DNA of 64,000 nt from Flaccisagitta enflata (GCA_965153355.1 OZ231126.1:22754001-22818000), one strand, 5' to 3'. Shown: positions 1-42,475, numbered from the stretch's first letter. Translations and numbers: made by a program. Notes: generated by a model not told the origin, from the sequence alone.

Positions 1-1654
1 TTTTTGCTCCAGTTCACATTTTTTACAGAGTACATCCCCATTTGTGAAGATCATTGAAGGCGCCATAAACAGAGCGGAGATTCAAGGACGAACTTGAAAA
101 ATATTTGGTCGTTCACTGAAATCTTTTCTAAACGATTGAGCTCAATTTTTTTATGTCCTATGAGTGAGTTGCTGTTGCCAACAGGTTGGTACACCTTCTT
201 TACCAAACATTCAACCTATAAACCACGTAATTTACTCTTTAAACAAACGTTATATTACAATGGATACTCGTTAAAAATTCAAAAGATGAACAAAAGTTGA
301 AACGGTGGATGCTCCTAGGATTTTATAACCCTAATCTTAAACCAACAAAATTAAGTTGAAAAACCGCCATTTGATTATATTAATCTGATTTGTATAATTT
401 GTTTTCTATGCGATTTTTTTTCCTCTTTCCCTTCCTCATTTTAAAGTTTGCACAGCCATCATCTTCTCCGCCTTACAAAGAAAAGCCAGCTTGAAAGGCT
501 TTCATGACCTTAAGGCATTTCCCCAGTTTAACGTTTGAAGAAGCAGACAGAAAATAAATCAAGCGAAGGAATTTGTCCACCCAATGTTTAAACTAATCGT
601 CCGTTTACCGCGGTCAAACAATCCAAGTACATTCACAAATATCATTCGGACATATTGTCTTTTTCCTTTTGTTTGTTCGTGTGACTTTACTTTGTTTACT
701 TGATTCCTTTAGTCACTTGTAATTGTTCGTCAGTGGCCCCGGGAAGAAATTTTTACCCATCAATTTGAACCTGAATCTGATCTGTCCTGGTGCATGTTAT
801 AATATTCACACAAAACTTTGGGCCTAAATGGAGATGTGAGTATTGAAACTGAAACTCAATCTTGGTCAGTATTCTTACCAACCAGGTCATGATTTTGGCA
901 AATCATTATCAACCTTTTCACTAGTTTTTTTTTTAGGACAAAAATTCTATTTAATCCACCAAATTTTCCGATATTGTACTTTATTTACGCTCAGCTCTAA
1001 AATCTATCAAATTGGGGAGGTAACCGATGTCCGTAAATTTTCTTACCTTCTTTCTCTCTTTTTATTTGGTTTCCAAACTTTGATCTTCATTCTTTCCCCC
1101 CTTTTTTAGGTGCACCATAGCACCTCTATAAGAGGCTCTGTCTGTCGGTCGGTTGGTTGGTTGGTTGGTTGGTCGGTCGTTTGGTTGGTCGGTCTAGCTC
1201 GAGTTGAAAATCTCTTAAAGAAGCAAAAATCACTGGAACTGATTCGGAAATATGCTAGGATGATTTTTAGATGCGCCATAGCACCTCTATAAGAAGCTTG
1301 GTCTGTCCCTCGATCCGTCGGTCACGCTCGAATGAAAAATCGCTAAAAATGTTTAAAATCAATTGAAAACTCATTTCGTTCATCACTGATAATACTTGTC
1401 ATTCCATTCACTAAAATAATCAGCTACGGTTAGGTCTGATAGAGCTGGGGATAGGTCGGATAGGTCTGGTGATAGGTCGGATAGGTCTGGGGATAGGTCT
1501 GATAGAGCTCGGGATAGGTCTTATAGAGCTCGGGATAGGTCTAAAAATTATTAACTCCCGGCGCACCGTCTTTGCCCCTGTATCCGGCCTTGTTTACTAA
1601 TTGCCTGGTTGCTTGCTGCCTGATCGCATGTATTATTATAGTACCCGACAGTCA

Positions 1655-1708
<54 letters not shown>

Positions 1709-3512
1709 ACTACGCAAACACAACACCCAAACTCCCCGGCAGCTACCAGAGAGTACAGAAATGAAAGAGATGCATAAAGAGAGAAGCCAAAACCAATTTT
1801 GAGATCAAACTTGGAAAAGAACAACTAACCCAGGGTTACAAAATCGTTGCGGACAAGTAGGCCGGGGCGTGCAATCTCCCTCCTCAAAACACATAATGTA
1901 CACTGTCTAAAATGTGAGTTTTCACACATTTTGACTTGATCATTATGGATGAACTACCGACGGACCTACGGATGTATCGACTAACTCACGGATGGACAGC
2001 TAAACCAGCGAGTGCAATAAAATCATCAAGCCGTCCCATACACAAAACACACAAAACGGTGCAATCTTAGGTCTCACTTGAAAACTCTTTTGAAATATTT
2101 CATTAATCAAAGAAACGAAGCGAAAAAAATAACCGAACAATCAAACGCAAAACAAACGAAAAAAAACTATGAAATAGACTTAGCTTTGGGCAAGAATTGA
2201 GAGGAAGCCATGAAGCAGACTCGTTAAATACAAACAAAAGGATGAGCTCCTGGGTTTTGTTGATAAATACACGTTCCGGTTTGTGTTCGCGTTATCATGG
2301 TTAATGATCAATCAGAATTGAGGGCCGAGGGTGCACACTTTCACAAATTGGTTGAATCTGCGTGTAGAGTACACGTCTAGAAAGGAAAATGCACGCAATT
2401 GCCTCCTGTGAGAGGCATACAATTCTCCAATATACTTGTTTTAGTCTTCTACTTCTCAATTTACGACTCAATTTACAGGTTAGAATAATGTCGGGAAGTC
2501 CGAGTATCACGTCCGAGAATATCGTAAATTCGTTAGGCGATTTTCAGTCGAGTGCACGCGATTCTACACACCGCTTTATCGGTCGGTCGGTCGGTCGGAC
2601 GGTGGGTCTTCATGTTGGTACATAAAGGAAATTTCCTCTAGATCCCTCCAGGAAATTTGTTACTTTTTTATGTAAGACCTGTTAACACATTGCTTTTTTG
2701 CCGAACGGTTTTTGCATCACTTCCCCTGTCCAATTGCTTGGTTACCCTATATCATCTCTGCCCCTGCCCACCCGCATGCGACTTAGCCACTTGGGTAGCT
2801 TTGAATCCTGCCTTGTATGTTTGTTTGTCTGTGTGGCTCAAATCGAAACCAAGCCCTACAGCACAAAATCAAGTTTGGTTGGGTATTGTCAATAAAAGAT
2901 TGTTTGAACCATCATGCATGAAAGGCCAAAACTGCTCTTTCACAACGAATTGATTGTCTAGCAAGACAGAAACACCGAGAATCTACGACGGACCAAGCCT
3001 ACCGGTCGACCGACTCTGACGCGACCTGTAATGTCGCAGGCACGCGTTTACAATATTCTAAACCTTGCATGAGGCTCAAGAGGCAAAAATGACAGAGACA
3101 AAGTGACCGATGAATTGTTCTGGAGGCGCGGCCTGTGAATACATTTTTGTCAGCAAAACTGAGAGGTAACTCAATCACTTGATGACAAGTGGACCTGCAA
3201 AATGTTTATTTTATCGGAATGATCTGGACAAGGCGTCCAACCAAGGGCGCCTTCTTACGGCCTCTCATGAAAGGAGGTCTTTGGATTACCTCGTTTCACA
3301 TGTCCAACATTTAGGCGGAAAAATACTTATGTATAGTAAGTGTGAAAACACGACTTCTAGTTGGACGAGTGTGATGAAATTTCAACTGAGGGGTCCCAAT
3401 ACTTTCAGGCTACTACAGTAAAATTTCCATCTTACTGGGCCAACAAGAAATATGTATTTCATATTCTAAATATTTTAGTATTTTCCACCTAATTGTTGGA
3501 CATCTGTTAAGC

Positions 3513-3730
3513 TTTTTAGTCGCGTGCTACGCGACTCTACACCCCGCTTTGTCGGTCCGTCCGTTCGTCCATCCGTCCGTCCATCGGTCTGTCCGTCCAT
3601 CACATTTTACTTTTTTTGGTTTTTTTTCGGTCTTTGGCCTCACTGCTCCTGCCCAAATGATCAAGTGACCTCAAAAAACAGCCCCTGCCCACCCGCACGC
3701 GACTGGGGTAGCCGTGTATCCGGCCTTGTT
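3513..3730 (+). mobile_element. DINE-1/HINE-like element, family A (type copy)
   Basis: TTTTT-AGTCGCGTG-cta-CGCGACT hairpin, (GTCC/GTCG)n tract, 3' subterminal IR CACGCGACT, hairpin GCCGtgtatcCGGC, ending CTTGTT. No TSD. Other copies at ~2542, 7108, 15278(-), 33903(-), 37082(-), 41944 and 59790(-). Confidence 0.75.
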
Positions 3731-3798
3731 CCCTTCCCCAGAACAGGAATTCATCAAAAATCATCAATTTGTATATCGTGGATAGAATTCATCACCTA

Positions 3799-4399
3799 CA
3801 GTACGATGGGAGCAAAGACGACCTAGACTGGAGGATAGATTTTAGGTATATTAATTTCGTTTGATGCATAAAAGAATTAGGATCTATGCTTATTAAAAGT
3901 TGCTATATTGCTTGAATATATTACCTTCTTTCATTCTTCAATTTGTGACTTGACATTATCGGAACTTCATTTTTCAACGCTTTAACTTAGTCTATTTGAT
4001 TAGGCTAAAATTTTTATATAATTTTGAAAAAAGAATCAGCTCAATCGGACTATTTTTACAGGTTTTACAATTATTTTTCAAACAGAATAATTATGTAAAT
4101 TAATATCTGGGCAAAACTTAAATCAGGCATAAAACCTGTAAAAATAGTCCGATTGAGCTGATTTTTTTTCTGAATTATGAGCTAGGTTAGAACATTGAAA
4201 AATAAAGTCCTGATGAAGTCAAGTCACAAGCTGAAGATTAAGTGAAGCAAATATATTCAAGCAATAAAACAACATTTAATTAGCATAGATCTCAAATTTT
4301 TTATAAATTAAATCAAGATACCTAAATTTTTTTATAAATGAAATTAAAATACTTCAAATCTATCCTCAAGTCTAGGTCGTCTTTGCTCCCATCGTACTG
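3799..4399. mobile_element. Palindromic (foldback) MITE, Tc1/mariner-like termini
   Basis: Termini TA-CAGTACGATGGGAGCAAAGACGACCTAGACT ... AGTCTAGGTCGTCTTTGCTCCCATCGTACTG. The arms stay complementary for about 265 bp (e.g. 4033-4068 vs 4131-4163). Confidence 0.85.
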
Positions 4400-5095
4400 T
4401 CGTTTGCTTGGTTTTTAGTTGCGGACACGCGACTCTATATGCTATAAGCCACTTTTCAGTCAGTCGGTCGGTCCATCCGTCCGTCCCGTCCACGAGTAAT
4501 GCTGCCGTGTATGCGGTCTGTTTTTTTTTTTTTTTTTTTTTTTTATAAAGCGTGCCATTTTTAGATGCGTCCTCGCATGTTAATCTAGTTTGCTGTTATA
4601 GAGTATAAAACAGTACAGTTCTTTATAAGATGGTTTTCTCCATGTAAAGATATTTTTTTCAGCCATGCCATGAAAATCTGTTGATGCAATATGAAGAGTT
4701 TTATGTAATAGTGGAATTCTTTCCACATAGAGCTAAGGTGAGGTAGCATCGTTGCCGGATTGGGCTTGTTCCATAATCAATTCTTTTTACATTTCAAAAT
4801 TCTTATTTCTAACGAGTGGTTGATCATGATTTAAGAAACCAGGTAGACTTAAAGTTGGAGCCTTATTATTCACCAATATTGGTTGCTTTTTAAATTCTTG
4901 ATGATTAGAGAAGTGGAGAAGGACCGGATTTGAAGGGGGGAGGGACTGACGCGATTTATTGCGAATTCTCACAGATATACGATTAGCTCGTTGAGGGGTG
5001 TTTTCGTGGATACTAAATGATTAGGGTACTAAGGGAAAGATTTATCATGAACCAGCCAGTCCAACTGACCATCGGTCCATGGATTGGTCTATCTA

Positions 5096-5440
5096 CCGTA
5101 TTTTTTCTAATTAGCGCCCCGGGCGCTTTTGAAATTGGAAAAAGATATTGTCATTTTACCCCCCAATTAGCGCCCCCTTTTGATTCATGAACATTCTGTT
5201 TTCCTATGTTTTTTACATTGAATATTATTCAGAATATCAGAAATATAAGATTAAATGTATTAGAGTCACATTTTTTGCTTGTTTTATAATAAATCCCTAA
5301 TAATAGACACTGAAATAATCAAAATCATTTCTCTTTCAATGATTATTTACTTTTTCATCTTCCTTCAAATCATTATTCTGGGGAGCAAAAAGAGGGGGGG
5401 GCGTTAATTGGAGGGGGGGCGATAAATGGAAAAAATACGG
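5096..5440. mobile_element. MITE with TA target-site duplication (Tc1/mariner/pogo type)
   Basis: Termini TA-CCGTATTTTTTCTAATTAGCGCCCC ... GGGGCGATAAATGGAAAAAATACGG-TA. Confidence 0.8.
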
Positions 5441-5785
5441 TATCCGTTGATCTGTTGGTCAGTCACGCATAGGGCCTTTTGGGTCCTAACGTGCAGTTAT
5501 ATGTATCACTGCACTGCCCTTACCCATCCTTCAATATAGCTACTGCACCCTGCCCCTGCCTATTTGCACGCGATCAAAACACGTTAGGGACCAATTAATG
5601 AACCATACAAACGCCTAAAGTGCAGTTAAATGCATCACTGCACTGCCCTTGCCCAACATTTAATATAGCTACTGCACCCTGCCCCTGCTTATCCGCACGC
5701 GATCAAAACAAGTTAGGGACCAATCAATGAACCATGAAAACGCCTGAACAACCGACTGACTGACCTACCAACAAACCAACCAACG

Positions 5786-18537: not shown

Positions 18538-18642
<105 letters not shown>

Positions 18643-18854
18643 TGTCTATGTCTATGTTCTATGCAAACACAAAAGTGAAGAAAACAAAACAAAAACAAAA
18701 ACAAAACCCATTGTAAAAGAGTAAACGATGAAAAAATATTCTAAAACGAAAAAAAGAATGTCAACATCGTCTACGCCTCAAATTCATTTATGCTTTTGAA
18801 AACTTTTTATTCTTTGGATGTGAAACGTCCGTTTTCGACCAACTCGATTATTTT

Positions 18855-18889
18855 CTGACCATTTTCTTTTCTTTTTCGTTAACTTTCAG
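18855..18889 (+). promoter_or_regulatory. Splice acceptor of a 5'-UTR intron just upstream of the collagen ATG
   Basis: Branch-like CTGAC at 18855, a polypyrimidine tract, and CAG at 18887-18889, 21 nt before ATG 18911. Confidence 0.6.
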
Positions 18890-18910
18890 TGAGAGCTTCG
18901 CGCCGTTAAG

Positions 18911-21900
18911 ATGTGGAGGGACAAGGAAAAGTCCCGTCGCCATCCTGGCGCCTCGATAGCCGCGAGTCGTAGTCATCATAGGAGTACTTCCAGACATTCT
19001 TCCAATCCATCGTCGCTACATCAAAATTCATCCTTCATCTCCGCATCCTCATCGTCGTTTTTCGCATATTCCTCATCCCTCATTTTCGCCGTTTTGTGTG
19101 TCATCGCCTTCACCGGCGTCTCCAGTTCCAGCGTCCCATTGCCAAAAGGGGCGTATGATTTACTCAGTGCTGTGAACATCCAATCCTTCCCATATGGAGT
19201 CAAGGAAACCGTTGGTATCTGTACGAACCGGCCGCCGTACGTCACGGACAGTAACGGTTATCCCGTTGGGAAACCCGACGTTGCTTATCGGTTAAATGAA
19301 GATGCTCAACTCAGCGTGACGACGAATACGGTTTTCCCGGATGGATTCCCTCAAGATTTTTCCATCCTGGCCACCATTCGACCAGACGATCAAAATTCCG
19401 CCTTCTTGTTCACCATCTACAATGGGCAAAATGGCAACGAAGAATTGGCAATTCAGGTTGGTCCCAGGCCTTTGTTTTGGTATGAAGATGTGAATGGAAG
19501 ACCTGGCCGTGAGAATTCGCCAAGATTCAACAATATCAATCTGTCTGATGGCAAGTGGCACAGAGTGGCATTTTCTGTGAAAGGTGATTCCGTGACTATG
19601 TTGCTTGACTGCAAGGAAAATCAGACGCTTCCTTTGAAGAGGAGCAATCCATCCAACATTGATCTTACTGGTATCATAATTGTTGGAAGGCAGTTGATGG
19701 AAGATGCAGTTTTCAAGGGAGATATTCAAGATTTGATCATTGTCGACAACCCTGAAGCGGCTTATTCTCATTGCACCTGTTTGTCACCTGACTGTCAAGT
19801 TCCATTTGACACTGCAGAAAAGGCGTGCAAGTCTGGATTTGGTAAGGGAGTTGTCACACGGTTTGATGGACATCGAGGCAGCTCTAGAGGATCCAGGTCT
19901 CGCTTGAGCAGGAGTGAAGCGAATGCTCGGCTGAATGAAGAAGCTGGTGGTTATGGCTTTGGATCATTTGGTGATGAAGCTGTTAGTAGTGTCGGTGAAG
20001 GAGCCTTTGGAGCAGCTGGTGGTGAGATTGGTCTTGCACCAAGTTTGTCTGGTGGTGACTATGAATATGGTGAAGCTGAATCAAGCCAGTTTGGAGGGTG
20101 GGAAGGATCAGGAGAGGCTGAATCTCCTGCCGCACCTGGACCAGGTGGCAATGCATACTACATTCCAGGCCCACCAGGACCCCCAGGATGGCCGGGACCA
20201 CCAGGACCAAATGGACCCAAGGGAGAAAGAGGTTTACCTGGCCGAGATGGTATTGCTGGAGCAGATGGTTTACCAGGACCCCCTGGCCATGTCTTCATTA
20301 TTCCATTGCAGGGACCAGATGGAAAAGGTCCAGATAACGCTGAGACTTTCAGGCAAATGCTCAGTCAACATATGCTTGCCATGAGAGGTGCCACTGGACC
20401 TCAAGGTGTTGCTGGTCTGTCTGGTGTTCCTGGTTCACCAGGTTTTGAAGGCCCCAAAGGTGAACCTGGAGATGGTGGGGAAGCTGGTCCAAGAGGAGGC
20501 AGAGGAGCAATGGGACCTCCTGGCAGAAATGGAAAGCGTGGTAGAACAGGTGGTGATGGAGAGCGTGGAAGAAGTGGTCCCCCTGGAGCCAAAGGAGAAC
20601 AAGGATACCCTGGAATGCCAGGATTGCCAGGTCCCAAAGGACACTTTGGTTTACCAGGGTTTCCAGGAAAACCGGGTAGTGATGGACCAACTGGAGAGCC
20701 TGGAGAAGATGGACCCCAAGGTCAACCAGGATCTCAAGGTGATATGGGACCCCGCGGATTTTTGGGACCAAGAGGACAGCCAGGTCCAGCTGGACAGCCA
20801 GGTATTCCTGGCTTGGAAGGAGCAGAGGGTCCAAAGGGCTCCATGGGTCCCATGGGTGGACCTGGTAATCCAGGAACTCCTGGGCCATCTGGTCCCATAG
20901 GTCCACCAGGTTCTCAAGGTTCAATTGGACCACCAGGTATGCCAGGTCCAGTTGGAAAGCCTGGCCTCCCAGGTCTGCCAGGTGCTGATGGTTTGCCAGG
21001 TCTTACAGGAACTGGTGGTTCCCCAGGAGAGAAAGGTGAATCTGGTCCCCCTGGACCTCAAGGTATCCTTGGATATCCCGGAGTGCGTGGAGTTAAAGGA
21101 GATGCTGGTGGAAGAGGATACCCTGGTGAAAAGGGAGACAAAGGTGCTGCAGGTATTGACGGATTTAAAGGAGCGCCTGGTCAATCTGGTGAAAAAGGTA
21201 AACCAGGACCACGAGGTTTACCAGGTGAACCAGGACCTGAGGGTCCCAAAGGATTTGAGGGTCCACGTGGAGAAGCTGGTCCTCCAGGCCCCTTTGGTGA
21301 GAAGGGAAAAATGGGTATCCCTGGATTCCCAGGCTACCCTGGAAGAAGAGGAGGAAAGGGTGACCGAGGACTGGTTGGTAAAAGAGGCAGAGATGGCTCA
21401 ACTGGCCCACAAGGAACACCTGGAGCTGATGGGGATAGAGGAGAACCTGGACCAAGAGGCCCGAGAGGTGAACGTGGAATCAGAGGTATCCCTGGACCAG
21501 TTGGAAACAAAGGTGAAACAGGCCCTCCAGGAACTCCTGGAGCCTCAGGCGCTCCTGGCCTTGAGGGAAATAGGGGTCCTAGTGGCTACCCTGGTGCCCC
21601 TGGGCCTTCAGGTATTCCTGGTAAAGATGGATTGGTTGGTTTGCCAGGTGAAAGAGGTGAGCCTGGAAGCCCAGGTCAACCTGGTCAACCAGGACCAGTT
21701 GGTGTCGTTGGACCACCTGGACCTGGTGGAGAAACAGGTCCAGCTGGAGATCGTGGTGTGCCAGGTAACCCTGGTCTACCTGGAGAAGCAGGACTTCCAG
21801 GTGAGTCAGGAAAGCCAGGAGAAAGAGGATTACCAGGGCCAGCAGGAACTGGAGGAGCTGAGGGGCCACCAGGCTTTCAAGGTTTCCCTGGTGAGAGAGG

Positions 21901-24226
21901 CTTGCCAGGACCCCCAGGAAAAGATGGAGGAAAGGGAGAAATTGGACCTAGTGGACCTAATGGCCCAGGTGGTGATAAAGGTGAACAAGGCATGGCTGGA
22001 CCCCCAGGTGGCCAAGGCCCTGTTGGCAGACCAGGTCCTCAAGGAGAAATCGGACTTCAAGGTGGCAAAGGAGATCCTGGAGAACCTGGCATTAATGGTG
22101 TGCCAGGAAGAGATGGCTTGCCAGGTGGAAGAGGTTTGCCTGGTGCTCCAGGACCTGTTGGAAGACCAGGAGAAGATGGTGATAAAGGAGATCCAGGACC
22201 TGCTGGTGAAAAAGGATTCAAAGGTGACTTTGGTCTTCAAGGACCACCTGGATCCCCAGGCAAACAAGGACCAGAAGGACCTATGGGCCCAATTGGACCA
22301 CCAGGAGAAACTGGAGCTAAAGGTCCTCAAGGTATTCCAGGTACAAAGGGAGATGAAGGTCCAAGAGGCCCACCAGGTGTTCCAGGACTTCCAGGATTGC
22401 AGGGATTACCAGGTCCTCAAGGAGGAAAAGGGGACTCAGGTGATCCAGGACAGAGAGGACCACCTGGTCCTCCAGGACCACAAGGATCTCCAGGAACTCC
22501 AGGAGCCCAAGGAGAAGCAGGAACACCAGGGCCACCAGGAACTGAAGGAGCAAGAGGTGGCAAGGGTGATCCTGGCCTTCCAGGTTTAGTTGGAAATCCA
22601 GGCAAAGATGGAGAACCAGGCCCCCGTGGTCTTCCAGGGGCAAAGGGTGAAGATGGTTCACTTGGTCCACAAGGACCCCCAGGCCCAAGAGGTCTTCCGG
22701 GAGTTGAAGGACCAAAGGGTGATCCAGGACCAACAGGTTTCCCAGGAAACGCAGGTCGCCCAGGCCCTCCTGGTCCCAAAGGATTGGATGGATTGCCAGG
22801 CATCAATGGAGACCCTGGACCGCTTGGACCCCCAGGAAAAGATGGACCACCAGGTGAAGTTGGGCTTCAAGGCCTCCCAGGCAAGCAAGGACCATCTGGC
22901 CCACCAGGTGTGCAGGGCCCCTCAGGACCAATTGGGCCTAAAGGTGATGCTGGTCCCATTGGTACCCAAGGTCCTCCAGGCGGTCCAGGAGGTTTGGGAC
23001 CACCTGGTCCAGCTGGAATTCCAGGATTGAGAGGATCAATTGGACCCCAAGGAGATGTTGGACCACCAGGACCATCTGGTGCACCAGGACAAGCTGGCAT
23101 AACTGGACCACCAGGACCAGGAGGTCCTAAAGGAGATCCTGGCCCCAAGGGAACAAAAGGTCATCCAGGTGCCATTGGTTTGATGGGTCCTCCAGGTGAA
23201 GCTGGACCAAAGGGAGATACTGGACCTAAGGGACCTCCAGGAAAAGTTGGATCAAAAGGAGACCCAGGAATTGCTGGCCCAGATGGAATTTCTGGTGCTG
23301 ATGGACCTGCTGGGCCCCCAGGACCTGAGGGTTCAAGTGGACCAAAAGGACAAACTGGACCTGCTGGAACCAAGGGAGATGCTGGTCCAGTTGGACCTCC
23401 TGGACCTCCAGGACCACCAGGTGAGGCTCAGTTAATTCCTCCTGACTTTATCAGTCCACCAAAGAGTGCTGCTAGAAGAAAGAGAGATTTGGATGAAAAC
23501 AACAAAATCTCTGAGGATGATCTTCATGTTGGAGAGCATTATGTCAATGTTGTGTCAAGAATTGTGGATTATCTGGACAACATGCAAAAGCAGTTGGATG
23601 GCATTACTAATCCAGTTGGAACTAAGGATGAGCCAGCCAGGTCATGCAGAGATTTACATCAAGGACACCCTGATTTGCCAGATGGTTGGTATTGGATTGA
23701 TCCAAATTTGGGCGTCATCAATGATGCCATCTATGTGTATTGCAACATGACAAGATCTGGAGAAACCTGTGTCAAACCCACACAAAATACACGCACTATG
23801 CCCCAGAGGTGGTGGAGAAAAGAAAGTGAAACAAACAAGCCATTCTCAAAACTGAAAGGTGGATTTGATATTGAGTATGATGATTCAGTGCAACTCACAT
23901 TCCTCAGACTTCTCAGTGAGGAAGCAAGGCAAAACTTCACCTACTTCTGCACAAATTCCGCTGGCTGGTACAACGTTGATGACTACTCATTGAATTGGGC
24001 TTTGGTCCTTCAAGGTCAAAATGACCACGAGTTTGATACCAAGTACTTCACCTCACAGCAAGTTATCTACGATGGCTGCAGAAACCGTCGTTCTCAAAGC
24101 TACACAGTCTTTGAAGTCAAGACAAAGAAGTTGAACCAGCTACCACTTGTCAACTTCGTACCCAAGGATTACGGCGCTGGATACCAAATGTTTGGATTTG
24201 AAGTTGGTGCTATTTGCTTCAGTTAG
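18911..24226 (+). CDS. COL11A1-like: Clade-B fibrillar procollagen alpha chain (collagen V/XI-like), single coding exon, 1771 aa
   Basis: The ORF has a hydrophobic leader (aa 57-70) and a TSPN/LamG domain (~19154-19750; [29 protein letters not shown]). An acidic/Gly variable region is followed by a minor helix ending [13 protein letters not shown]. The uninterrupted Gly-X-Y major helix spans 20387-23428 (3042 nt = 338 triplets). Then come a furin site RRKR (23474-23485) and a COLFI C-propeptide ([34 protein letters not shown]). Confidence 0.97.
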
Positions 24227-25422
24227 CACCAGAAGAAGATGAACCCTTGGCTGTCTACAATCTGGCATAATTAGTTCTCATCAATTGGTCATCATCGTGG
24301 TAAATATTTGGTAAGCTTTAGGGGATTTCACTTGAAGAGTGACACTACAGGTTTAACTAAGATTGATTAGTTTTAGTTATGTCAGAGATATCAACAAAAA
24401 TGTGATTATTGAAATTTTGGATGTAAATGGTGTTGTAAATCATGGAATTGGTAGATTACTGAAACTTTTGTTGTAAAAATATCGAAACTTAAAGCGCGAG
24501 TTGTCTGGAAGTAACTAAATGTAAATGACATCACCTCAAGACATGCTTGAATTTACCTAAGCTTGTCAAATTCCAACTGCTATAAAACTGCCATTTTCAA
24601 ACTCATAACCGGCTATGCAAAGCCGTCCCTGTCAAGATAATTAGTTCAAATACCAATGAGCATTTTTACTCACACCAATTCCACGCTGAAAATCTATTTG
24701 AGGTTCAGGATGACTGTGGCCAGTCTAAAAAAGTACAATCCAATCACCAGCACCTCTCGGGAACAGATAATTTAATTCAGTGCTGGTAATCAATTCGCAT
24801 AGTTTGTCTTAGAGTCATTTTTTTGTCTTTGTTTTTGTCGTTATTGTTAGCATTGTTTTTGTTGTCTTTGTAACTGTTGTTACTACTTCCAAGGTGCTAA
24901 GTTCCCCTCTCCCCTTTTTGTCATTTTTTTTAGTATTGACTTTGTCACGAATGTCATTGTCGTCGTTTTCGCTGTTAAAGCTTCAATGACGCAAACTTTG
25001 CCATTTATTCTCAAAATCTATTCGCATTTGCGTTCGAAAGTATCAGTATATTCAGCAAAAGTTCAATACTTAGAATAATATCGTAGCTATCATGTCCCCA
25101 CCGTATAGTTCTGGCGTTTATTTCAATCTAACGTAATTAGAAATGTCCTCATAAGAAGCCTAGCGAATATTAAGAAAAAAAGTTTTAAAGCCTTTATTTG
25201 GTTGTTGATGTAAAAAAACGAGCTTGTATATTGTGTATGAATGCAAAAGCGCCTCGGGAAGAAAATGAAGAATAAGGGTGCCTTTTTGGTGCTCACGACT
25301 CAACACCGGCGTCCTTACCAACACGGCAACAGTTTGAGCGTCATTCTCGTTCTCACGCCTCTCGCGTTGTCCATGTCCGCGACAACGAATTCATCTTGGA
25401 ACGGATCGTCATCAATCATCTC

Positions 25423-25533
25423 GGGATGCTTCGTCGATTACATCCCGGAATGCCTCGTCGATTAAATCCCGGAATGCCTCGTCGATTACAACCCGGAATG
25501 CCTCGTTATCTACACCATGGAATGCCTCGTCGA
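25423..25533 (+). repeat. 24-bp tandem repeat (CCCGGAATGCCTCGTCGATTACAT), about 5 copies
   Basis: Core GGAATGCCTCGT at 25447, 25471, 25495 and 25519. Confidence 0.85.
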
Positions 25534-25761
25534 TCTCGCGTCCAAATCATCCGGCGTTGCGGCGTCGTCATTCTCTCAAAACTTCGACGCCGTCATTTCG
25601 GATTACTTCACGACGCCGTCGGCGACACCATCTGCAACGTCGTCTGGAACATCATCTGCAACGTCGTCTGGAACATCATCTAAATCTTCATCGTTACAGC
25701 AGAAATTTTGTTCTCTTTTGGTAAGTTAATCCGCGTAAGAAATGAAAGACTAAACAAAAAC

Positions 25762-26526
<765 letters not shown>

Positions 26527-32669: not shown

Positions 32670-35137
32670 TCGTCAAACTCGAAACTCTATGGTGCTAAAT
32701 TTCTCAAAAACGGTGCTAATTTTCGGGGGACATTTAGTCCCTCTTTATCTTAACTGTTCTTTTTTTTTCAATTTTTTTTGTTTATGTACAGTTGACTGTT
32801 TTTATCATTTTCTTACCACATAGAAATTGTGCAATAACGCAGAAAAAAGCGACGGCTTTAGGATACAAGATATGCCTAGAAGAAATTATATCGAGTCAAG
32901 TTGACTGCATGGTCTGGGACATTGAAGGGAAAGAACATTTTGAATGGATTCCAAAGAAAATTATTCTCATCATCATTTTATGCGATTGTCTTTCTTTTGG
33001 AGATATATCAGAATATTCTTTCATTAACAATGCGCCAAAAAAAGTAAGGTCTTCCACATTGCGAAATAGAGCAGAGCTTGTCAGCTATTTTCTTTATTCC
33101 TTTTCAAATTTTATCGTTTCATGTTTAAAGATGACTTAAAACTAGATCCTTTCAGTTTGTACTATGTTATCATCGTTGATGTATAATTTCTCTTTTAGTG
33201 CCAATTACATGAAATTATTTACATTCTAGTGTCGTCAATATCCTTTGATGTTAACGAGGTAATGAGAGACTAATGTTGTGTCCGTTCATAGGTCTTCTTT
33301 TTGTTCCTTTAATTCATTCTACTATATTTCTCAGATGAGCGTATCTATTGATCACCTCCTGGTCCTGGTCTAATGATGCCCATAAGGCCAGGCTTCTCTC
33401 TAAGCACGTTTCTTTGTCCATTTGCGCAATTAAAGCCCAATTTACTTGAAAAATCAACTTGGACTTGATCTAGGCACCACTTCATCGATGCTTAAGATGT
33501 ATAGAATTGATTGCTGTAGTTGTGAGAGAAGTTTCTGCCATAGACCCTGATCATTTTACACAACTACACCATTTATGAGGTGGCGGCTAGATCAAATCCA
33601 TATTTATCTAGCAAGTAGATTGGCCTCTAATTATACAAATAGGGCATGGAAACTGCTTTGAAATGAGTCTTTTCTGGTTTTTTTTAAATGCAAAAATGGA
33701 GTCTCATGACATTGACCGACTCTAGACTATTGGATATTAGGAAAAGATGCAAATAAGGCCGTTTACACGGACCCCAGTGAGCAGGGGCAATAAAGCAAAA
33801 AACCGCTCACATTTTGAAAAAAGTTACCTAGCGATTGACGGACGAACCGACCGACTGACTGCCCAACATGACAAGTTCTAGAATTGCGCGTCCGCGACAA
33901 AAAATACGACATAGTATTTCCTTCGTTTTTATTGATTTGGGAAAGATGGATACGTGTTCAGAGAATATCATATGTGCTTATGCTACAAAATTAATGACCA
34001 AAAGTTATAACACCATTATCAATTTCGGCAGTCAGTTGCAAAACCTAAGACAAATTAGTCAAAAGTCAGGGAATTGCAGGATTTGAAATTGACAAGGTTA
34101 GCAATCAATAACAAAGTGGTGCACTTTGAGGCGGTGTATCTGTTCAATGTTGGCATGACCTTAAATTTATAACGATTTTTTTCGGCTATTATTCCGAATA
34201 TTATTCTCGAATATTATGTGGTTAGCTGAGCTACGAAATTAAGTCTCCATCCAGGATTTTTTTGATGTTCTCCTTTCCAAGTTCTTTAGTTTTTCAGTTT
34301 TTGTTTCTTAGGTTACTTTTTCTTTTTCGTTTTTTTTTCTTTTTTTCTGTTAGTTATTTGGTTTTTGTCTTTTTTAGTTTTTAAAACACTTCTAGGTTTG
34401 AGGTTTTAAACTTTTGACTTTTGAGTTAACTCAGAATCAGAAACTATACAACTTGAAGAGTCACATGTTCTCGCAAGTCAGGCAGGAAAGTAGAGTATGA
34501 CTACTTATAGAATGAAAAGGGCTGTAAAAAACCCGAAAAACAAAAGATGTGAGGGACAGGCAGACCAACCAACCAACTTCGTAAAAAGAGTCGCGTGAAT
34601 AGGACTACATACCGCCTGCCAAAATACTGACTGCGTGACAGATTGATAGAAAGATTACAACAAAGTGACACCGCCTTGCTTTTCGCTAAAGAGGTGAAGC
34701 TTGTTGGTCAGTCGGTCAGTCATGCATAACATCTATTGCACTATGTACATATTATTGCACTATGTACATATTAGCCCACCTTATTTTGCATTGTATATGC
34801 AATACATGAACGCGGTGGACTACTCTTGCGCGACGGACGGAGGCCGGAGGAACCGACTGACCGACGGATAGAGTGACAGAGCCTCACAGAGTTGCGATGG
34901 CGCATCAGTGTGGACTCAACGGTCCCATGCGGTGGGCAGGGGCAGTCAACGTCTGCTAAGAAATTTGTGACTAACCAACAGACTGACCAAAAAGTGACTT
35001 TAAGGCTCACATACCACGCGACCTAAGGCTAAACAGTGTATTATAGAGGAAGTGAATCAAATAATGAAAATGTGTAAGAATCTGCACTGAGTAAAAGACA
35101 AGAACATCCAGAACTACGACACAGACTCAATTGCAGC

Positions 35138-40200: not shown

Positions 40201-41013
40201 TTTTTTTTTAAATTTTTTTTCATGAAGCTTTATCAAGGTCTACCATATGTCCATGCAAATTTGTTGGCCCATATTTCGACTTCTTTTTAGGTTTTAACTT
40301 AAAAAAAGGCCAAAAATCATCGAATTTCACGATTTTGGGTCTGACGGTCTCCAAAAAAGTGTTAATTGACACCCAAAAAATGCTCTCAGGGTCACGAAAT
40401 TTTTTTTGGGCATCAACAACAGTCACTAAAAGAAATTTTGGCCCTTGGTTCATACGTCCCTGCCATAACATGGCAATGTCTCAGGCCAAAAGACGATTTT
40501 CGAAGCCATTTTTTTCCATTTTTTTGTTTTCGAAGGCAATTTTGGGTACTTAAAGTGCTCCGATTTTGATGAAATTTTGCATGGTACTTTATAATGTGAA
40601 GTATCTCCAGTAAAAATTTTGTCCAAATCAGTGAACTGGGGGGTAACGATTTTTTTTTTCCAAAATTCATAAAAAATACATTTTAAATTTAATACCTAAA
40701 AATTCCGAGGTTCAAAATTTTTTACACACAACTAAATTAGGGTCTAATACATATGTGTGTAAAATTTCATGGCTCTACTCCATGTTTAAGATAGGTTTCA
40801 GGGCCAAAAACCGTCAAAAATAGCTAATTTTGGCCATTTTGGGCACTTTTTTTTAGACATTCGAACTAGCACCTGAAACTGGGTATAACAAACCTGGATT
40901 AGTGTTCCCCAAGGTATTACGCACATTTTAAGACCCAACTTCATGGGTCGCAGGGGACTCGCCCTTTTGACCCCCCTTTTCTTTGAGCTACAAACCAAAA
41001 ACACGCAGACGGG
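37224..41013. mobile_element. 3.8-kb foldback element whose ~1.37-kb inverted arms are made of 523-bp tandem units
   Basis: Termini TA-(A)CCGTCTGCGTGTTTT / AAAACACGCAGACGGG-TA. The left arm 37224-38594 mirrors the right arm 39653-41013. The 523-bp period shows as identical spurious ORFs at 37775/38298 and 39843/40366. Confidence 0.88.
39102..39600. repeat. Direct duplication (~258 bp x2) in the loop of the foldback element
   Basis: TTTCATCTGCTCGCTTGGTAGTCAGTGATATA... starts at both 39102 and 39360, with near-identical continuation. Confidence 0.85.
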
Positions 41014-41061
41014 TAAATCGAATAATCTTATCTGTTACTTTAGCGATTTTCTTTACCCTGA

Positions 41062-41586
41062 GTGCATGTGCTTCCTGCATGTGCATCCTGCATGTGCTTC
41101 CTGCATGTGCATCCTGCATGTGCTTCCTGCATGTGCTTCTTGCATGTGCTTCCTGCATGTGCTTCCTGCATGTGCTTCCCGCATGCGCTTCCTGCATGTG
41201 CTTCTTGCATGCGCTTCCTGCATGTGCTTCCTGCATGTGCTTCCTGCATAAGCTTTCTGTATGTGCTTCCTGCATGTGCTCCCTGCATGTGCTTCCTGCA
41301 TGTGCTTCCTGCATGTGCTTCCTGCATGTGCTTCCTGCATGTGCTTCCTGCATGTGCTTCCTGCATGTGCTTCCTGCATGTGCTTCCTGCATGTGCTTCC
41401 TGCATGTGCTTCCTGCTTGTGCTTCCTGCTTGTGCTTCCTGCATGTGCTTCCTGCATGTGCTTCCTGCATGTACTTCCTGCATGTGCTTTCTGCATGTGC
41501 TTCCTGCATGTGCTTCTTGCATGCGCTTCCTGCATGCGCTTCCTGCATGCGCTTCCTGCATGTGCTTCCTGCATGTGCTTCCTGCA
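41062..41586. repeat. 13-bp minisatellite (TGCATGTGCTTCC), about 40 copies
   Basis: Tandem unit is directly visible and gives 13-aa periodic ORFs in all six frames. Confidence 0.97.
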
Positions 41587-42475
41587 ATTCTGCCCCCTGT
41601 CGTTCCACAAAGCTAATCTCCCACTTGATCATGACTGGAAAACATTTGAAACTCTACGAAAACTGAATGAAAATGCCGAATTGAATGAATGTTATTTCAA
41701 GTTCAGGAATGAAGAAAGAAAAAAGTTTCTTCTGATTTCACATCCGCAACGATGGGATTTAGATTCATTCTTTCTGTTTTTCTCTCTCTCAGTCCCTCAC
41801 TGTTCTTCGAGCTCTCTTTAGCTATCTGCCCTTGTCTATCTGGATACCTCGGTTTCTCTCTCCCTGTCTCTGCTTGACCTTCCTTTTTATAGCTTTACTA
41901 AGGAGCCACGCTCTTGCATCGTTATTAAGATTATATTGTTCACTTTAGTCGAGTGCTCGCGACTCTTGATACCGCTATATTTGTCGATCGGTCACCGTTT
42001 GCTTTTTAAGCGTTTTCCACTTTTTTTGGGCATGGTTGATCCTGCCCAAATGCTTGAGTTAGCAGTTTCCTCACTGCCCCTGCCCAACCACACGCGACTT
42101 CGGTTGCCGTGTATCCGGCCTTGTAGCCATGTGCTTCGCGACCAGCCAATTTTGGGTCGAGCCAATTTTGGGTCTGCTAGTACATCCCTACGTCGGTCCA
42201 CCCATAACATCTGTCCATTTTTCGTAGATTTTGCTTTTCTGCTCCTGCCATAATACTCGACTGGCCTCCCACATCGCTGCCCCTAACCACCCGCTGGTGA
42301 CCAAGGCTGCCGTTTATGCGGCCTTAAAACTATCTTATCAAACTTAGTCACTCTGTTTTGCACTGCCCACGCTAAGCCTAAATTCCAAGTGCAGCTAATC
42401 AGAGGATTCTTCTTAGTCTTATAGTTTTTGCGTTTTTTTTTCTTTGTTAGTTATTGTTTATTATTTCATCGAACA

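What the first reader, a model, noticed from the sequence alone, without database searches (positions are those of the whole stretch)
18890..24226. Completely intronless fibrillar collagen coding sequence
Seen: 5316 nt of continuous ORF from start codon to COLFI, with only a 5'-UTR acceptor upstream. No microsatellite or TE occurs from 18890 to ~25720, in a window otherwise saturated with them. Established: fibrillar collagen genes are classically split into dozens of exons, many of 54/45 bp multiples. Inference: wholesale intron loss by cDNA-mediated recombination, or a functional retrogene that captured an upstream non-coding exon. I saw no poly(A) remnant or TSD.
Basis: partly seen in the sequence, partly recalled or inferred. 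Interest (0 to 1): 0.75.

Follow-up and report, generated by a model that had tools for sequence, protein, structure and literature searches.

The report
Intronless type V/XI-like fibrillar collagen gene
A marine plankton animal encodes a complete, expressed fibril-forming collagen in a single 5.3-kb coding exon, although this gene family is the textbook case of a gene split into dozens of small exons.

Summary
Window 18911-24226 (+) is one ORF of 1771 aa. It encodes a canonical clade-B (type V/XI-like) fibrillar procollagen. The parts are a TSPN/LamG domain, a variable region, a 14-triplet minor helix, an unbroken 338-triplet (1014-residue) major helix, an RRKR site and a COLFI C-propeptide.

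RNA contigs from three metatranscriptome studies are colinear with the genome from 18890 to 24355. They leave the genome exactly at the AG acceptor 18889/18890, and the intron side has no RNA cover. So the coding sequence is unspliced in the dominant transcripts, and the only splice site lies 21 nt before the ATG.

A relative's orthologue (L001) is 76% identical in DNA and 87% in protein, with dN/dS 0.07. The gene is therefore functional and under constraint.

The mechanism is not settled. In-situ cDNA-mediated intron erasure and retroposition cannot be told apart, because no genome is held. I also could not show whether the relative's gene is intronless. The upstream "exon" could instead be a trans-spliced leader.

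Six literature searches found no description of an intronless fibrillar collagen gene. Verdict: a real, ordinary protein with an extreme gene structure, of moderate interest.

The parts
18860..18889 (+). 3' splice site (polypyrimidine tract + AG) of a 5'-UTR intron or of a trans-splice outron
   Evidence: Sequence ttttctttttcgttaactttcag|. RNA contigs of runs X2 and X6 stop matching the genome exactly at 18890. RNA depth is 0 upstream, where DNA run X1 covers from 18715.
18890..18910 (+). 21-nt 5' UTR part of the coding exon, beginning with an in-frame TGA
   Evidence: frame opens at 18893. RNA contigs start matching here.
18911..24226 (+). Single-exon CDS of a 1771-aa fibrillar procollagen chain (stop codon included)
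   Evidence: Colinear RNA contigs of three studies. Orthologous 1781-aa ORF in L001, 76.4% nt identity over 5302 nt. dN/dS 0.067.
18911..19132 (+). N-terminal aa 1-74: a long Ser/Arg/His-rich stretch, then one hydrophobic segment ([14 protein letters not shown]), presumed signal sequence
   Evidence: Translation. 48% identical to L001 with dN/dS 0.42, and the hydrophobic core is kept. Signal function is inferred, not tested.
19343..19747 (+). TSPN / laminin-G-like domain of the N-propeptide (aa 145-279 by Pfam; conserved block aa 75-300)
   Evidence: Laminin_G_3 4.6e-07 and Laminin_G_2 8e-06. PDB match to the collagen IX NC4 domain 2uur, 5e-14. aa 75-300 are 90% identical to L001.
20168..20293 (+). 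Minor triple helix, 14 Gly-X-Y triplets (aa 420-461)
   Evidence: Gly-periodicity count.
20387..23428 (+). Major triple helix, 338 uninterrupted Gly-X-Y triplets = 1014 residues (aa 493-1506)
   Evidence: The review PMC2852846 gives about 338 triplets as the prototype (passages seen).
23474..23485 (+). RRKR (aa 1522-1525), candidate furin-type C-propeptide cleavage site
   Evidence: Sequence. Beetle relatives have RERR/RRRR in the aligned place. Cleavage is inferred from recalled knowledge of pro-alpha1(V) processing.
23564..24220 (+). COLFI C-propeptide (aa 1552-1770), six cysteines
   Evidence: PF01410, 2e-65. PDB matches to procollagen I and III C-propeptides 5k31 and 4ae2. Cysteines counted in the translation.
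24227..25272 (+). 3' UTR, minimum extent
   Evidence: RNA contigs X9 24013-24355 and 24697-25099; X2 24357-24907 and 24924-25272; X6 24601-24766. Block 24367-24683 is 72% identical to L001 behind its stop codon. No AATAAA in it; the nearest ATTAAA is at 25461.

Best explanation
This is a genuine, expressed gene of a marine planktonic invertebrate. Its nearest named protein relatives are beetle collagens, so it is probably an arthropod. It encodes one chain of a clade-B (vertebrate type V/XI-like) fibrillar procollagen.

The protein should work like any such chain. It is secreted, three chains register through the C-propeptide, the 1014-residue helix zips up, the C-propeptide is probably removed at RRKR, and the molecule enters striated fibrils with its TSPN N-propeptide kept at the surface.

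The gene is unusual in one respect. Every intron inside the coding sequence is gone, and the only splice junction is an acceptor 21 nt before the start codon. The most likely origin is reverse-transcriptase-mediated. Either the spliced mRNA was copied to cDNA and recombined with the resident gene, erasing all introns downstream of the 5'-most one, or a retrocopy replaced or outlived its parent.

Shown: the intronless CDS, the used acceptor, expression, purifying selection and the domain architecture. Inferred: protein function, cleavage, and the mechanism and age of intron loss.
For: Uninterrupted ORF.

RNA contigs of 3 of 3 laid RNA runs are colinear over 18890-24355, and all breaks are bridged. 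The RNA departs from the genome at 18890. A silent control stretch, 18715-18885, is covered only by the DNA run.

All listed joints inside the ORF have sides of 20-24 nt and no GT..AG ends, and several also occur in the DNA run. They are cross-matches of collagen repeats, not splicing.

Domains are; 14 + 338 triplets.

In a C-propeptide tree, window + L001 sit with beetle and plankton sequences in a clade (SH-aLRT 98). That clade joins vertebrate V/XI chains (98), apart from ant, echinoderm and coral chains.

The orthologue L001 is 86.7% identical in aa, with dN 0.10, dS 1.5 and dN/dS 0.067. The helix region aligns without gaps.

The genome does splice elsewhere. A donor AAG|GTGTGAGT ends a 1.77-kb exon of the neighbouring SRCR gene at 50536. 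Intron loss here is therefore gene-specific or exon-size-related, not a lack of introns.

Keeping only the 5'-most junction is what 3'-primed cDNA recombination predicts (established model, recalled).
Against: Contigs show presence, not absence, so a rare spliced isoform cannot be excluded (tool caveat).

The best DNA run may be the sample from which the window was assembled, so it is not independent.

No hallmark of retroposition or of recombination is left: no poly(A) remnant and no target-site duplication.

I could not establish whether relatives are intronless. L001 may be an RNA-derived assembly.

The taxon is inferred only from the nearest named hits, beetles at 42-53% identity.

Gradual one-by-one intron loss is not excluded.
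Confidence: 0.85

Rival explanations
1. Lineage-wide trait: all clade-B fibrillar collagen genes of this animal group (perhaps of crustaceans or arthropods in general) are intron-poor or intronless, so this locus is just one ordinary member.
For: L001, from a relative with saturated synonymous divergence (dS 1.5), carries the same uninterrupted ORF. Its 3' flank shares five weak colinear blocks with the window's genomic flank, out to 9 kb behind the stop, so it may be genomic or unspliced. The neighbouring SRCR gene also has exons of more than 1 kb. From memory, not from a call: insect fibrillar collagen genes were reported to have kept few of the ancestral introns (Aouacheria et al. 2004; the paper was not held).
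Against: L001 may be a cDNA-derived assembly. In all 7 contigs with a complete ORF, the ORF starts 78-483 nt from the contig's 5' end, which looks like transcripts. The beetle model P0002 has a heparanase-like sequence inserted in the middle of its major helix. This suggests at least one large intron in a beetle relative. No paper found describes such genes.
Confidence: 0.45
2. Recent functional retrogene: an mRNA of an intron-bearing parent gene that still exists elsewhere was retroposed here and acquired a 5' exon or a trans-splice acceptor.
For: Intronless CDS with a non-coding junction just upstream. A reverse-transcriptase ORF of a retroelement lies in the window at 62851-63999 (-). The C-propeptide tree shows two arthropod-type subclades, so paralogues exist in plankton animals. 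A DNA contig of run X1 has an intron-like end (ttactcttag) followed by Gly codons next to a short collagen match (table 7). Some collagen gene in that DNA therefore has helix introns.
Against: No poly(A) tract and no flanking unique direct repeat. The orthologue in L001 shares the 3' UTR block and further downstream blocks, so the locus itself is old. dN/dS of 0.067 over a dS of 1.5 means long-standing constraint. The parent could not be searched for.
Confidence: 0.12
3. The junction at 18890 is not a cis-splice to an upstream exon but a spliced-leader trans-splice acceptor. The gene would then have no intron at all, and its 5' end would be supplied in trans.
For: Both RNA contigs that reach the 5' end carry only 16 and 25 extra letters and then end. 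If these contigs were built from 31-letter words (the word length of the run index), an assembly running into a leader shared by many mRNAs would be expected to stop after fewer than 31 letters; this is my inference. The acceptor lies only 21 nt before the ATG. Calanoid copepods trans-splice a 46-nt leader and have short 5' UTRs and long 3' UTRs (PMC4664967, abstract and passages read). The stretch is found in marine plankton metagenomes and metatranscriptomes.
Against: The taxon is unknown. The published CopepodSL was not found, with up to 3 errors, in the window or in any of the 24 loci. I could not see the 16-25 letters themselves, as they were not among the rows shown. Low 5' coverage explains short contig ends equally well.
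Confidence: 0.3
4. Artefact or dead copy: cDNA contamination of the assembly, or a processed pseudogene.
For: An intronless copy of a normally intron-rich gene is the classic look of both.
Against: The DNA contig of run X1 runs from 18715 through the acceptor to 21297, so intron-side sequence is physically joined to the ORF. Five further DNA-type runs of two other studies hold 32-72% of the stretch's words; none of them was laid. The 5316-nt frame is intact, with 338 perfect triplets. It is expressed, and dN/dS is 0.067.
Confidence: 0.02

Closest known systems
Vertebrate clade-B fibrillar procollagens: pro-alpha1(V), pro-alpha1(XI), pro-alpha2(XI) (COL5A1, COL11A1, COL11A2)
   Same: Same module order: TSPN/LamG, variable region, minor helix, 1014-residue major helix, COLFI. 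The best named full-length hits after a beetle protein are fish COL11A1/COL5A1-like chains. The C-propeptide groups with them in the tree. There is a basic RRKR site before the C-propeptide.
   Different: The vertebrate genes are split into dozens of exons of 54 bp and its multiples (review PMC2852846, passages read). Here the CDS is one exon. Only six C-propeptide cysteines are present; by my recalled numbering, Cys-2 and Cys-3 are missing. The review says either or both can be absent. The stretch before the hydrophobic signal segment is unusually long, about 50 aa.
Beetle fibrillar collagen models (Gonioctena quinquepunctata JTB14_037568 = P0002; Aromia moschata NQ318_004111 = P0122)
   Same: These are the closest named proteins: 53% identity over 62% of the query (P0002) and 42% over the C-propeptide search region, query aa 1505-1771 (P0122). 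They share the architecture and the motif GPPGHVF(I/M)IP...QMLxQHM between the minor and major helix. They fall in the same protostome clade in the tree.
   Different: They fall in the sister subclade, not the window's own. P0002 carries a heparanase-like insertion inside the helix, most simply a gene nested in an intron and fused by the annotation. The beetle gene is therefore probably not intronless. This is inference from a gene model, not from DNA.
Classical split fibrillar collagen genes of other animals, as sampled in the same scan (L016, L018-L024 except L017)
   Same: The same C-propeptide motif...DPDG...PIYVYCNMT.
   Different: In 8 of 24 loci the match stops one or two codons after YVYCNMT at a donor (for example ACAG|GTAAAT), and in-frame stops follow within 30 codons in 6 of the 8. 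The window and L001-L013 read straight through this position; the matches of L014 and L015 also cross it but run to the contig's end.
RT-mediated intron loss and expressed retrogenes (general phenomenon)
   Same: Complete absence of CDS introns, with the only junction at the extreme 5' end. This is the pattern expected from recombination with a 3'-primed cDNA (recalled model).
   Different: No poly(A) remnant, target-site duplication or parent copy could be shown. The size of the erased structure, about 5.3 kb of CDS that in other phyla holds some 50 or more introns, is large for a single event.

Membership tests
Fibrillar collagen (COLFI-bearing procollagen) | C-terminal COLFI / NC1 propeptide | tested here: met
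   PF01410 at aa 1552-1770, profile positions 6-233 of 233, E 2e-65. PDB C-propeptides 5k31 (1e-43) and 4ae2 (5e-42).
Fibrillar collagen (COLFI-bearing procollagen) | Uninterrupted major triple helix of about 338 Gly-X-Y triplets | tested here: met
   Exactly 338 consecutive triplets, aa 493-1506. The prototype value comes from review PMC2852846.
Fibrillar collagen (COLFI-bearing procollagen) | Conserved exon-intron pattern of the helix (54/45/99/108-bp exons beginning with intact Gly codons) | tested here: not met
   No intron in the CDS, in DNA or in RNA contigs. This is a feature of gene structure, not of the protein, so protein membership is unaffected.
Clade B (type V/XI-like) fibrillar collagens | TSPN/LamG module plus variable region plus minor helix in the N-propeptide | tested here: met
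   Laminin_G_3 and Laminin_G_2 at aa 145-279. Collagen IX NC4 (TSPN fold) 2uur, 5e-14. 14-triplet minor helix at aa 420-461.
Clade B (type V/XI-like) fibrillar collagens | Phylogenetic grouping with V/XI chains rather than with clade A; a perfect 1014-residue helix, unlike clade C | tested here: met
   C-propeptide tree of 22 rows (quick search, SH-aLRT only). The protostome clade with the window joins gar, trout and salmon V/XI chains at 98, apart from ant, urchin, starfish and coral rows. No clade-C sequence was in the tree. The helix length and perfection argument against clade C rests on recalled knowledge.
Clade B (type V/XI-like) fibrillar collagens | Formation of thin striated fibrils, retention of the N-propeptide, trimer composition | not testable with these tools
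   Needs protein biochemistry or electron microscopy.
Processed retrogene | Poly(A) tract at the 3' end and flanking target-site duplication | tested here: not met
   The longest A-runs in 24227-26100 are 7 nt. The only shared flanking words are (AAC)n microsatellite, which is common in the window.
Processed retrogene | Intron-bearing parent gene elsewhere in the genome | not testable with these tools
   No genome is held for this window.
Spliced-leader trans-spliced mRNA | The same short leader at the 5' end of many unrelated mRNAs; the acceptor has no cis donor | tested here: inconclusive
   16 and 25 non-genomic letters precede 18890 in two RNA contigs, but the letters were not shown. The published calanoid leader is absent from the window and the 24 loci.

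The most novel reading that the evidence does not exclude
A major marine zooplankton lineage has erased the entire ancestral exon mosaic of a fibrillar collagen gene, an architecture otherwise kept from sponges to humans. It has maintained the resulting single 5.3-kb coding exon under strong purifying selection since before the split from the relative sampled as L001 (dS about 1.5). The 5' end is supplied by spliced-leader trans-splicing, so the gene has no cis-intron at all. This would be a natural experiment showing that the 54/45-bp exon structure is dispensable for making and evolving a perfect 338-triplet helix.
Probability: 0.2. Interest if true: 0.55.

Novelty: new variant of a known kind. 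Interest (0 to 1): 0.4.

Why it matters
Fibrillar collagen genes are the classic example of assembly from a 54-bp primordial exon. The review I read stresses that their exon pattern is conserved across Metazoa and is even used to align helices (PMC2852846). A fully functional chain with the canonical 1014-residue helix, encoded without any internal intron, shows that this pattern is historical baggage rather than a functional requirement. It also gives a clean case for studying large-scale RT-mediated intron loss in a long, repetitive, GC-rich coding region.

On the practical side, single-exon procollagen genes are convenient for recombinant expression. They also help in annotating plankton metagenomes, where such long ORFs could be mistaken for cDNA contamination.

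The impact is limited because drastic intron loss is common in several invertebrate lineages and the protein itself is conventional.

Tried and rejected
1. Own genome for a tBLASTn search for a parent copy: not held.

2. Names and taxa of the nearest proteins. The whole-protein word search was swamped by collagen words: 7997 candidates scored, best hit a beetle. The C-propeptide region gave 2 hits and the TSPN region gave 0. The exhaustive HMMER search gave one 99%-identical 112-aa fragment and otherwise at most 61% identity over partial matches, about 50% or less over most of the query, without names. The cluster look-up that would have named them was switched off. The ESM Atlas returned only generic COLFI clusters.

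3. Literature on arthropod fibrillar collagen gene structure. Six full-text searches found no paper describing an intronless or intron-poor fibrillar collagen gene. The two JBC papers most likely to hold exon maps of insect genes are not held. PMC4450265 and PMC5120351 say nothing on arthropod exon structure.

4. Upstream exon. L001's first 276 nt have no match in the 18.9 kb upstream in the window (best E 6.6 by blastn, 0.38 by tblastx).

5. Calanoid spliced leader: no match with up to 3 errors in the window or loci.

6. Rfam on the whole window: 0 matches.

7. Earlier findings of this scan: nothing on this genome and no look-alike. The collagen notes from other genomes are unrelated.

8. L003/L005 against L004, and L010 (two overlapping frames; its L008 overlap is 99.8% identical and colinear), were examined as possible intron-bearing genomic versions. 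They differ by single-base frame shifts only and are colinear.

9. I considered reading the flanking (ACA)35 and (AAC)72 arrays as a split target site or an expanded poly(A) tail. I rejected this as unsupported, because (AAC)n occurs at least four times in 25 kb and L001 has no tandem repeats outside its coding region.

10. The joints inside the ORF listed were rejected as splicing: sides of 20-24 nt, no GT..AG, and some also in DNA.


Full report
**Observation.** The window holds one open reading frame from the ATG at 18911 to the TAG ending at 24226, on the + strand, of 1771 codons. Read from stop to stop, the frame opens at 18893. The three bases before that, 18890-18892, are TGA. They follow directly on ttttctttttcgttaactttcag, a polypyrimidine tract ending in AG.

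Tandem repeats cover 18.8% of the window and microsatellites of period 6 or less cover 12.0%. The longest microsatellite-free interval is 18643-25752 (7110 nt), which is this gene. Intervals of 5791, 4813 and 4072 nt also occur, so the gap is what a constrained transcription unit would give, and no more. Two 24-nt minisatellites lie at 25417-25534 and 25617-25681.

**What it encodes.** Pfam finds collagen repeats (2e-148), a full COLFI domain at aa 1552-1770 (2e-65) and a laminin-G/TSPN-type domain at aa 145-279. Sequence matches in the PDB agree: collagen I, V, XI and II chains, procollagen I and III C-propeptides, and the collagen IX NC4 domain.

Counting glycines gives a minor helix of 14 triplets (aa 420-461) and a major helix of exactly 338 uninterrupted triplets (aa 493-1506, 1014 residues). 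The review PMC2852846 gives this as the prototype (passages read). RRKR at aa 1522-1525 precedes the C-propeptide, which has six cysteines. The review notes that Cys-2, Cys-3 or both may be absent.

I built a C-propeptide tree of 22 rows (quick IQ-TREE, SH-aLRT only). The window and its relative L001 sit inside a clade with two beetle proteins and ten plankton contigs (98). That clade joins fish V/XI chains (98), apart from ant, echinoderm and coral chains. The protein is thus a conventional clade-B (V/XI-like) chain. One oddity is that about 50 residues precede the single hydrophobic segment. No other ATG is available, and L001 has the same layout.

**Is the CDS really unspliced?** The stretch 18890-25400 is held by 20 public runs of 11 studies, nine of them recorded as RNA. 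Most are marine metagenomes or metatranscriptomes. I laid three RNA runs from three studies and one DNA run on 18650-25700.
- RNA contigs are colinear with the genome. X6 gives 18890-20992 and 20994-24239 (3246 nt, no gaps). X2 gives six contigs from 18890 to 24239. X9 gives several, including 24013-24355 across the stop codon.
- Every break between contigs of one run is bridged by a contig of another.
- The two contigs that reach the 5' end stop matching exactly at 18890, with 16 (X2) and 25 (X6) further letters that are not in the genome there.
- RNA depth is 0 in 18650-18885, while the DNA run has a contig 18715-21297 across the junction.

This internal control argues that the RNA contigs are spliced RNA rather than contaminating DNA, and that the acceptor is used. 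The joints listed inside the ORF all have sides of 20-24 nt, lack GT..AG ends, and partly occur in the DNA run too. They are cross-matches among collagen repeats. Because these are contigs, rare spliced isoforms cannot be excluded. The 3' UTR is colinear to at least 25272. RNA contigs continue to beyond 25700, but with a different depth pattern.

**Relatives.** One scan of metagenome contigs with a C-propeptide alignment gave 24 loci.

L001 (9298 nt) carries an ORF of 1781 aa (277-5622) that is colinear with the window's ORF at 76.4% nucleotide identity over 5302 nt. Protein identity is 86.7%. By Nei-Gojobori, dN is 0.10, dS 1.5 (saturated) and dN/dS 0.067. The values are lowest in the TSPN domain (0.03) and the helix (0.06), and higher in the N-terminal 74 residues (0.42) and the variable region (0.20). 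The region boundaries were approximate. The gene is therefore old and under strong purifying selection.

Whether L001 shows that the relative is also intronless is open. In favour of a genomic or unspliced origin, its 3.7 kb behind the stop share five weak but colinear blocks with the window's flank from 24.4 to 33.25 kb. One of these is a unique 30-nt identity at 33193-33222 that begins with an acceptor-like ttttag. A T-rich tract plus cag also precedes its ATG. Against this, in all 7 contigs with a complete ORF, L001 included, the ORF starts 78-483 nt from the contig's 5' end, as transcripts would. I therefore do not count L001 as proof.

The scan did pick up classical split genes. In 8 of the 24 loci the match ends one or two codons after YVYCNMT at a GT donor, followed within 30 codons by in-frame stops in 6 of the 8. 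The window reads through this position. L017 looks like a different family.

The beetle model P0002 has a heparanase-like sequence in the middle of its helix. This is most simply an intron-nested gene fused by annotation, which hints that beetle relatives keep at least one helix intron.

**Mechanism.** What is shown is the end state: no CDS intron and one junction 21 nt before the ATG. Complete and precise removal of what in other phyla is some fifty or more introns is best explained by reverse transcription of the spliced mRNA. Two routes are possible.
- (a) Recombination of the cDNA with the resident gene. This classically spares the 5'-most intron, because cDNAs are 3'-primed and often 5'-incomplete (recalled model). 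It fits the retained junction.
- (b) Retroposition to a new place, with later gain of a 5' exon or acceptor.

I found no poly(A) remnant (longest A-run 7 nt) and no unique flanking direct repeat. The (ACA)35 array at 18538-18642 and the (AAC)72 array at 25753-25967 bracket the unit. However, (AAC)n is frequent here, and L001 has no tandem repeats outside its coding region, so I read this bracket as chance.

The genome does have ordinary introns. The neighbouring SRCR/ephrin-receptor-like gene ends a 1.77-kb exon at the donor AAG|GTGTGAGT at 50536. A DNA contig of run X1 shows an intron end followed by Gly codons beside a short collagen match (table 7). No genome is held, so I could not look for a parent copy.

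**A second reading of the junction.** The RNA contigs end 16 and 25 letters upstream of the acceptor. If these contigs were built from 31-letter words (the word length of the run index), an assembly that runs into a leader shared by many mRNAs would be expected to stop after fewer than 31 letters; this is my inference. Calanoid copepods trans-splice a 46-nt leader and have short 5' and long 3' UTRs (PMC4664967, abstract, passages and Table 1 read). The published leader is not in the window or the loci, I could not see the letters themselves, and the taxon is unknown. This stays a hypothesis at about 0.3.

**Known or new.** The review I read presents the exon pattern of fibrillar collagen genes as conserved across Metazoa. 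Six full-text searches found no description of an intronless fibrillar collagen gene. The two papers most likely to show insect exon maps are not held. From memory only, insect genes were reported to have kept few introns, so complete loss would be the extreme of a known trend.

**Verdict.** This is a real feature and a conventional protein with an extreme gene structure. I class it as a new variant of a known kind, with interest 0.4.

Noticed in passing
window 48764-51711 (+): A second gene with very long exons. One ORF of 591 aa has two SRCR domains (1e-28) and ends at a good donor, AAG|GTGTGAGT, at 50536. An overlapping ORF in another frame (50305-51711, 468 aa) has an ephrin-receptor-like / TNFR-like Cys-rich module. 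The 591-aa ORF has no start codon at its head, so further exons lie upstream.
   Followed up: partly
window 62851-63999 (-): An open-ended 382-aa ORF with a reverse-transcriptase domain (RVT_1, 3e-20), probably a non-LTR retroelement running off the window's end. It shows that RT activity exists in this genome.
   Followed up: partly
window 18538-18642 and 25753-25967: The collagen transcription unit is bracketed by same-strand (ACA)35 and (AAC)72 microsatellites. A-rich AAACAAAAAC words lie just inside both (18687-18705 and 25752). This is probably chance in DNA that is 12% microsatellite. The relative L001 has no such arrays.
   Followed up: partly
window 25261-25700 and beyond: RNA contigs of runs X2 and X6 cover this GC-richer stretch, which contains 24-nt minisatellites. 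X6 has no cover over 24786-25257. This may be the far end of a long collagen 3' UTR or a separate transcript; the strand is unknown. A 135-aa ORF (25276-25683, +) has no obvious meaning.
   Followed up: no
window 33193-33222; L001 9193-9244: A unique 30-nt block is identical between the window and the relative's contig, about 9 kb and 3.6 kb behind the respective stop codons. It starts with an acceptor-like ttttag, and in L001 it is followed 52 nt later by a donor-like caag|gtacgt. It may be a conserved small exon or a regulatory element of a downstream gene.
   Followed up: partly
window 40971-41666: A tandem array of a unit of about 45-48 nt is open in several frames on both strands (repeats such as HVLPACASCMCFL). 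It is a minisatellite rather than a gene, by appearance only.
   Followed up: no
L002-L015 (metagenome contigs): At least six further full-length collagens with collagen repeats and COLFI (1636-1740 aa; LamG also detected in four of the six) come from other plankton organisms. In the C-propeptide tree they fall into two subclades, one with the window and one with the beetles, which suggests two ancient clade-B paralogues in these animals.
   Followed up: partly
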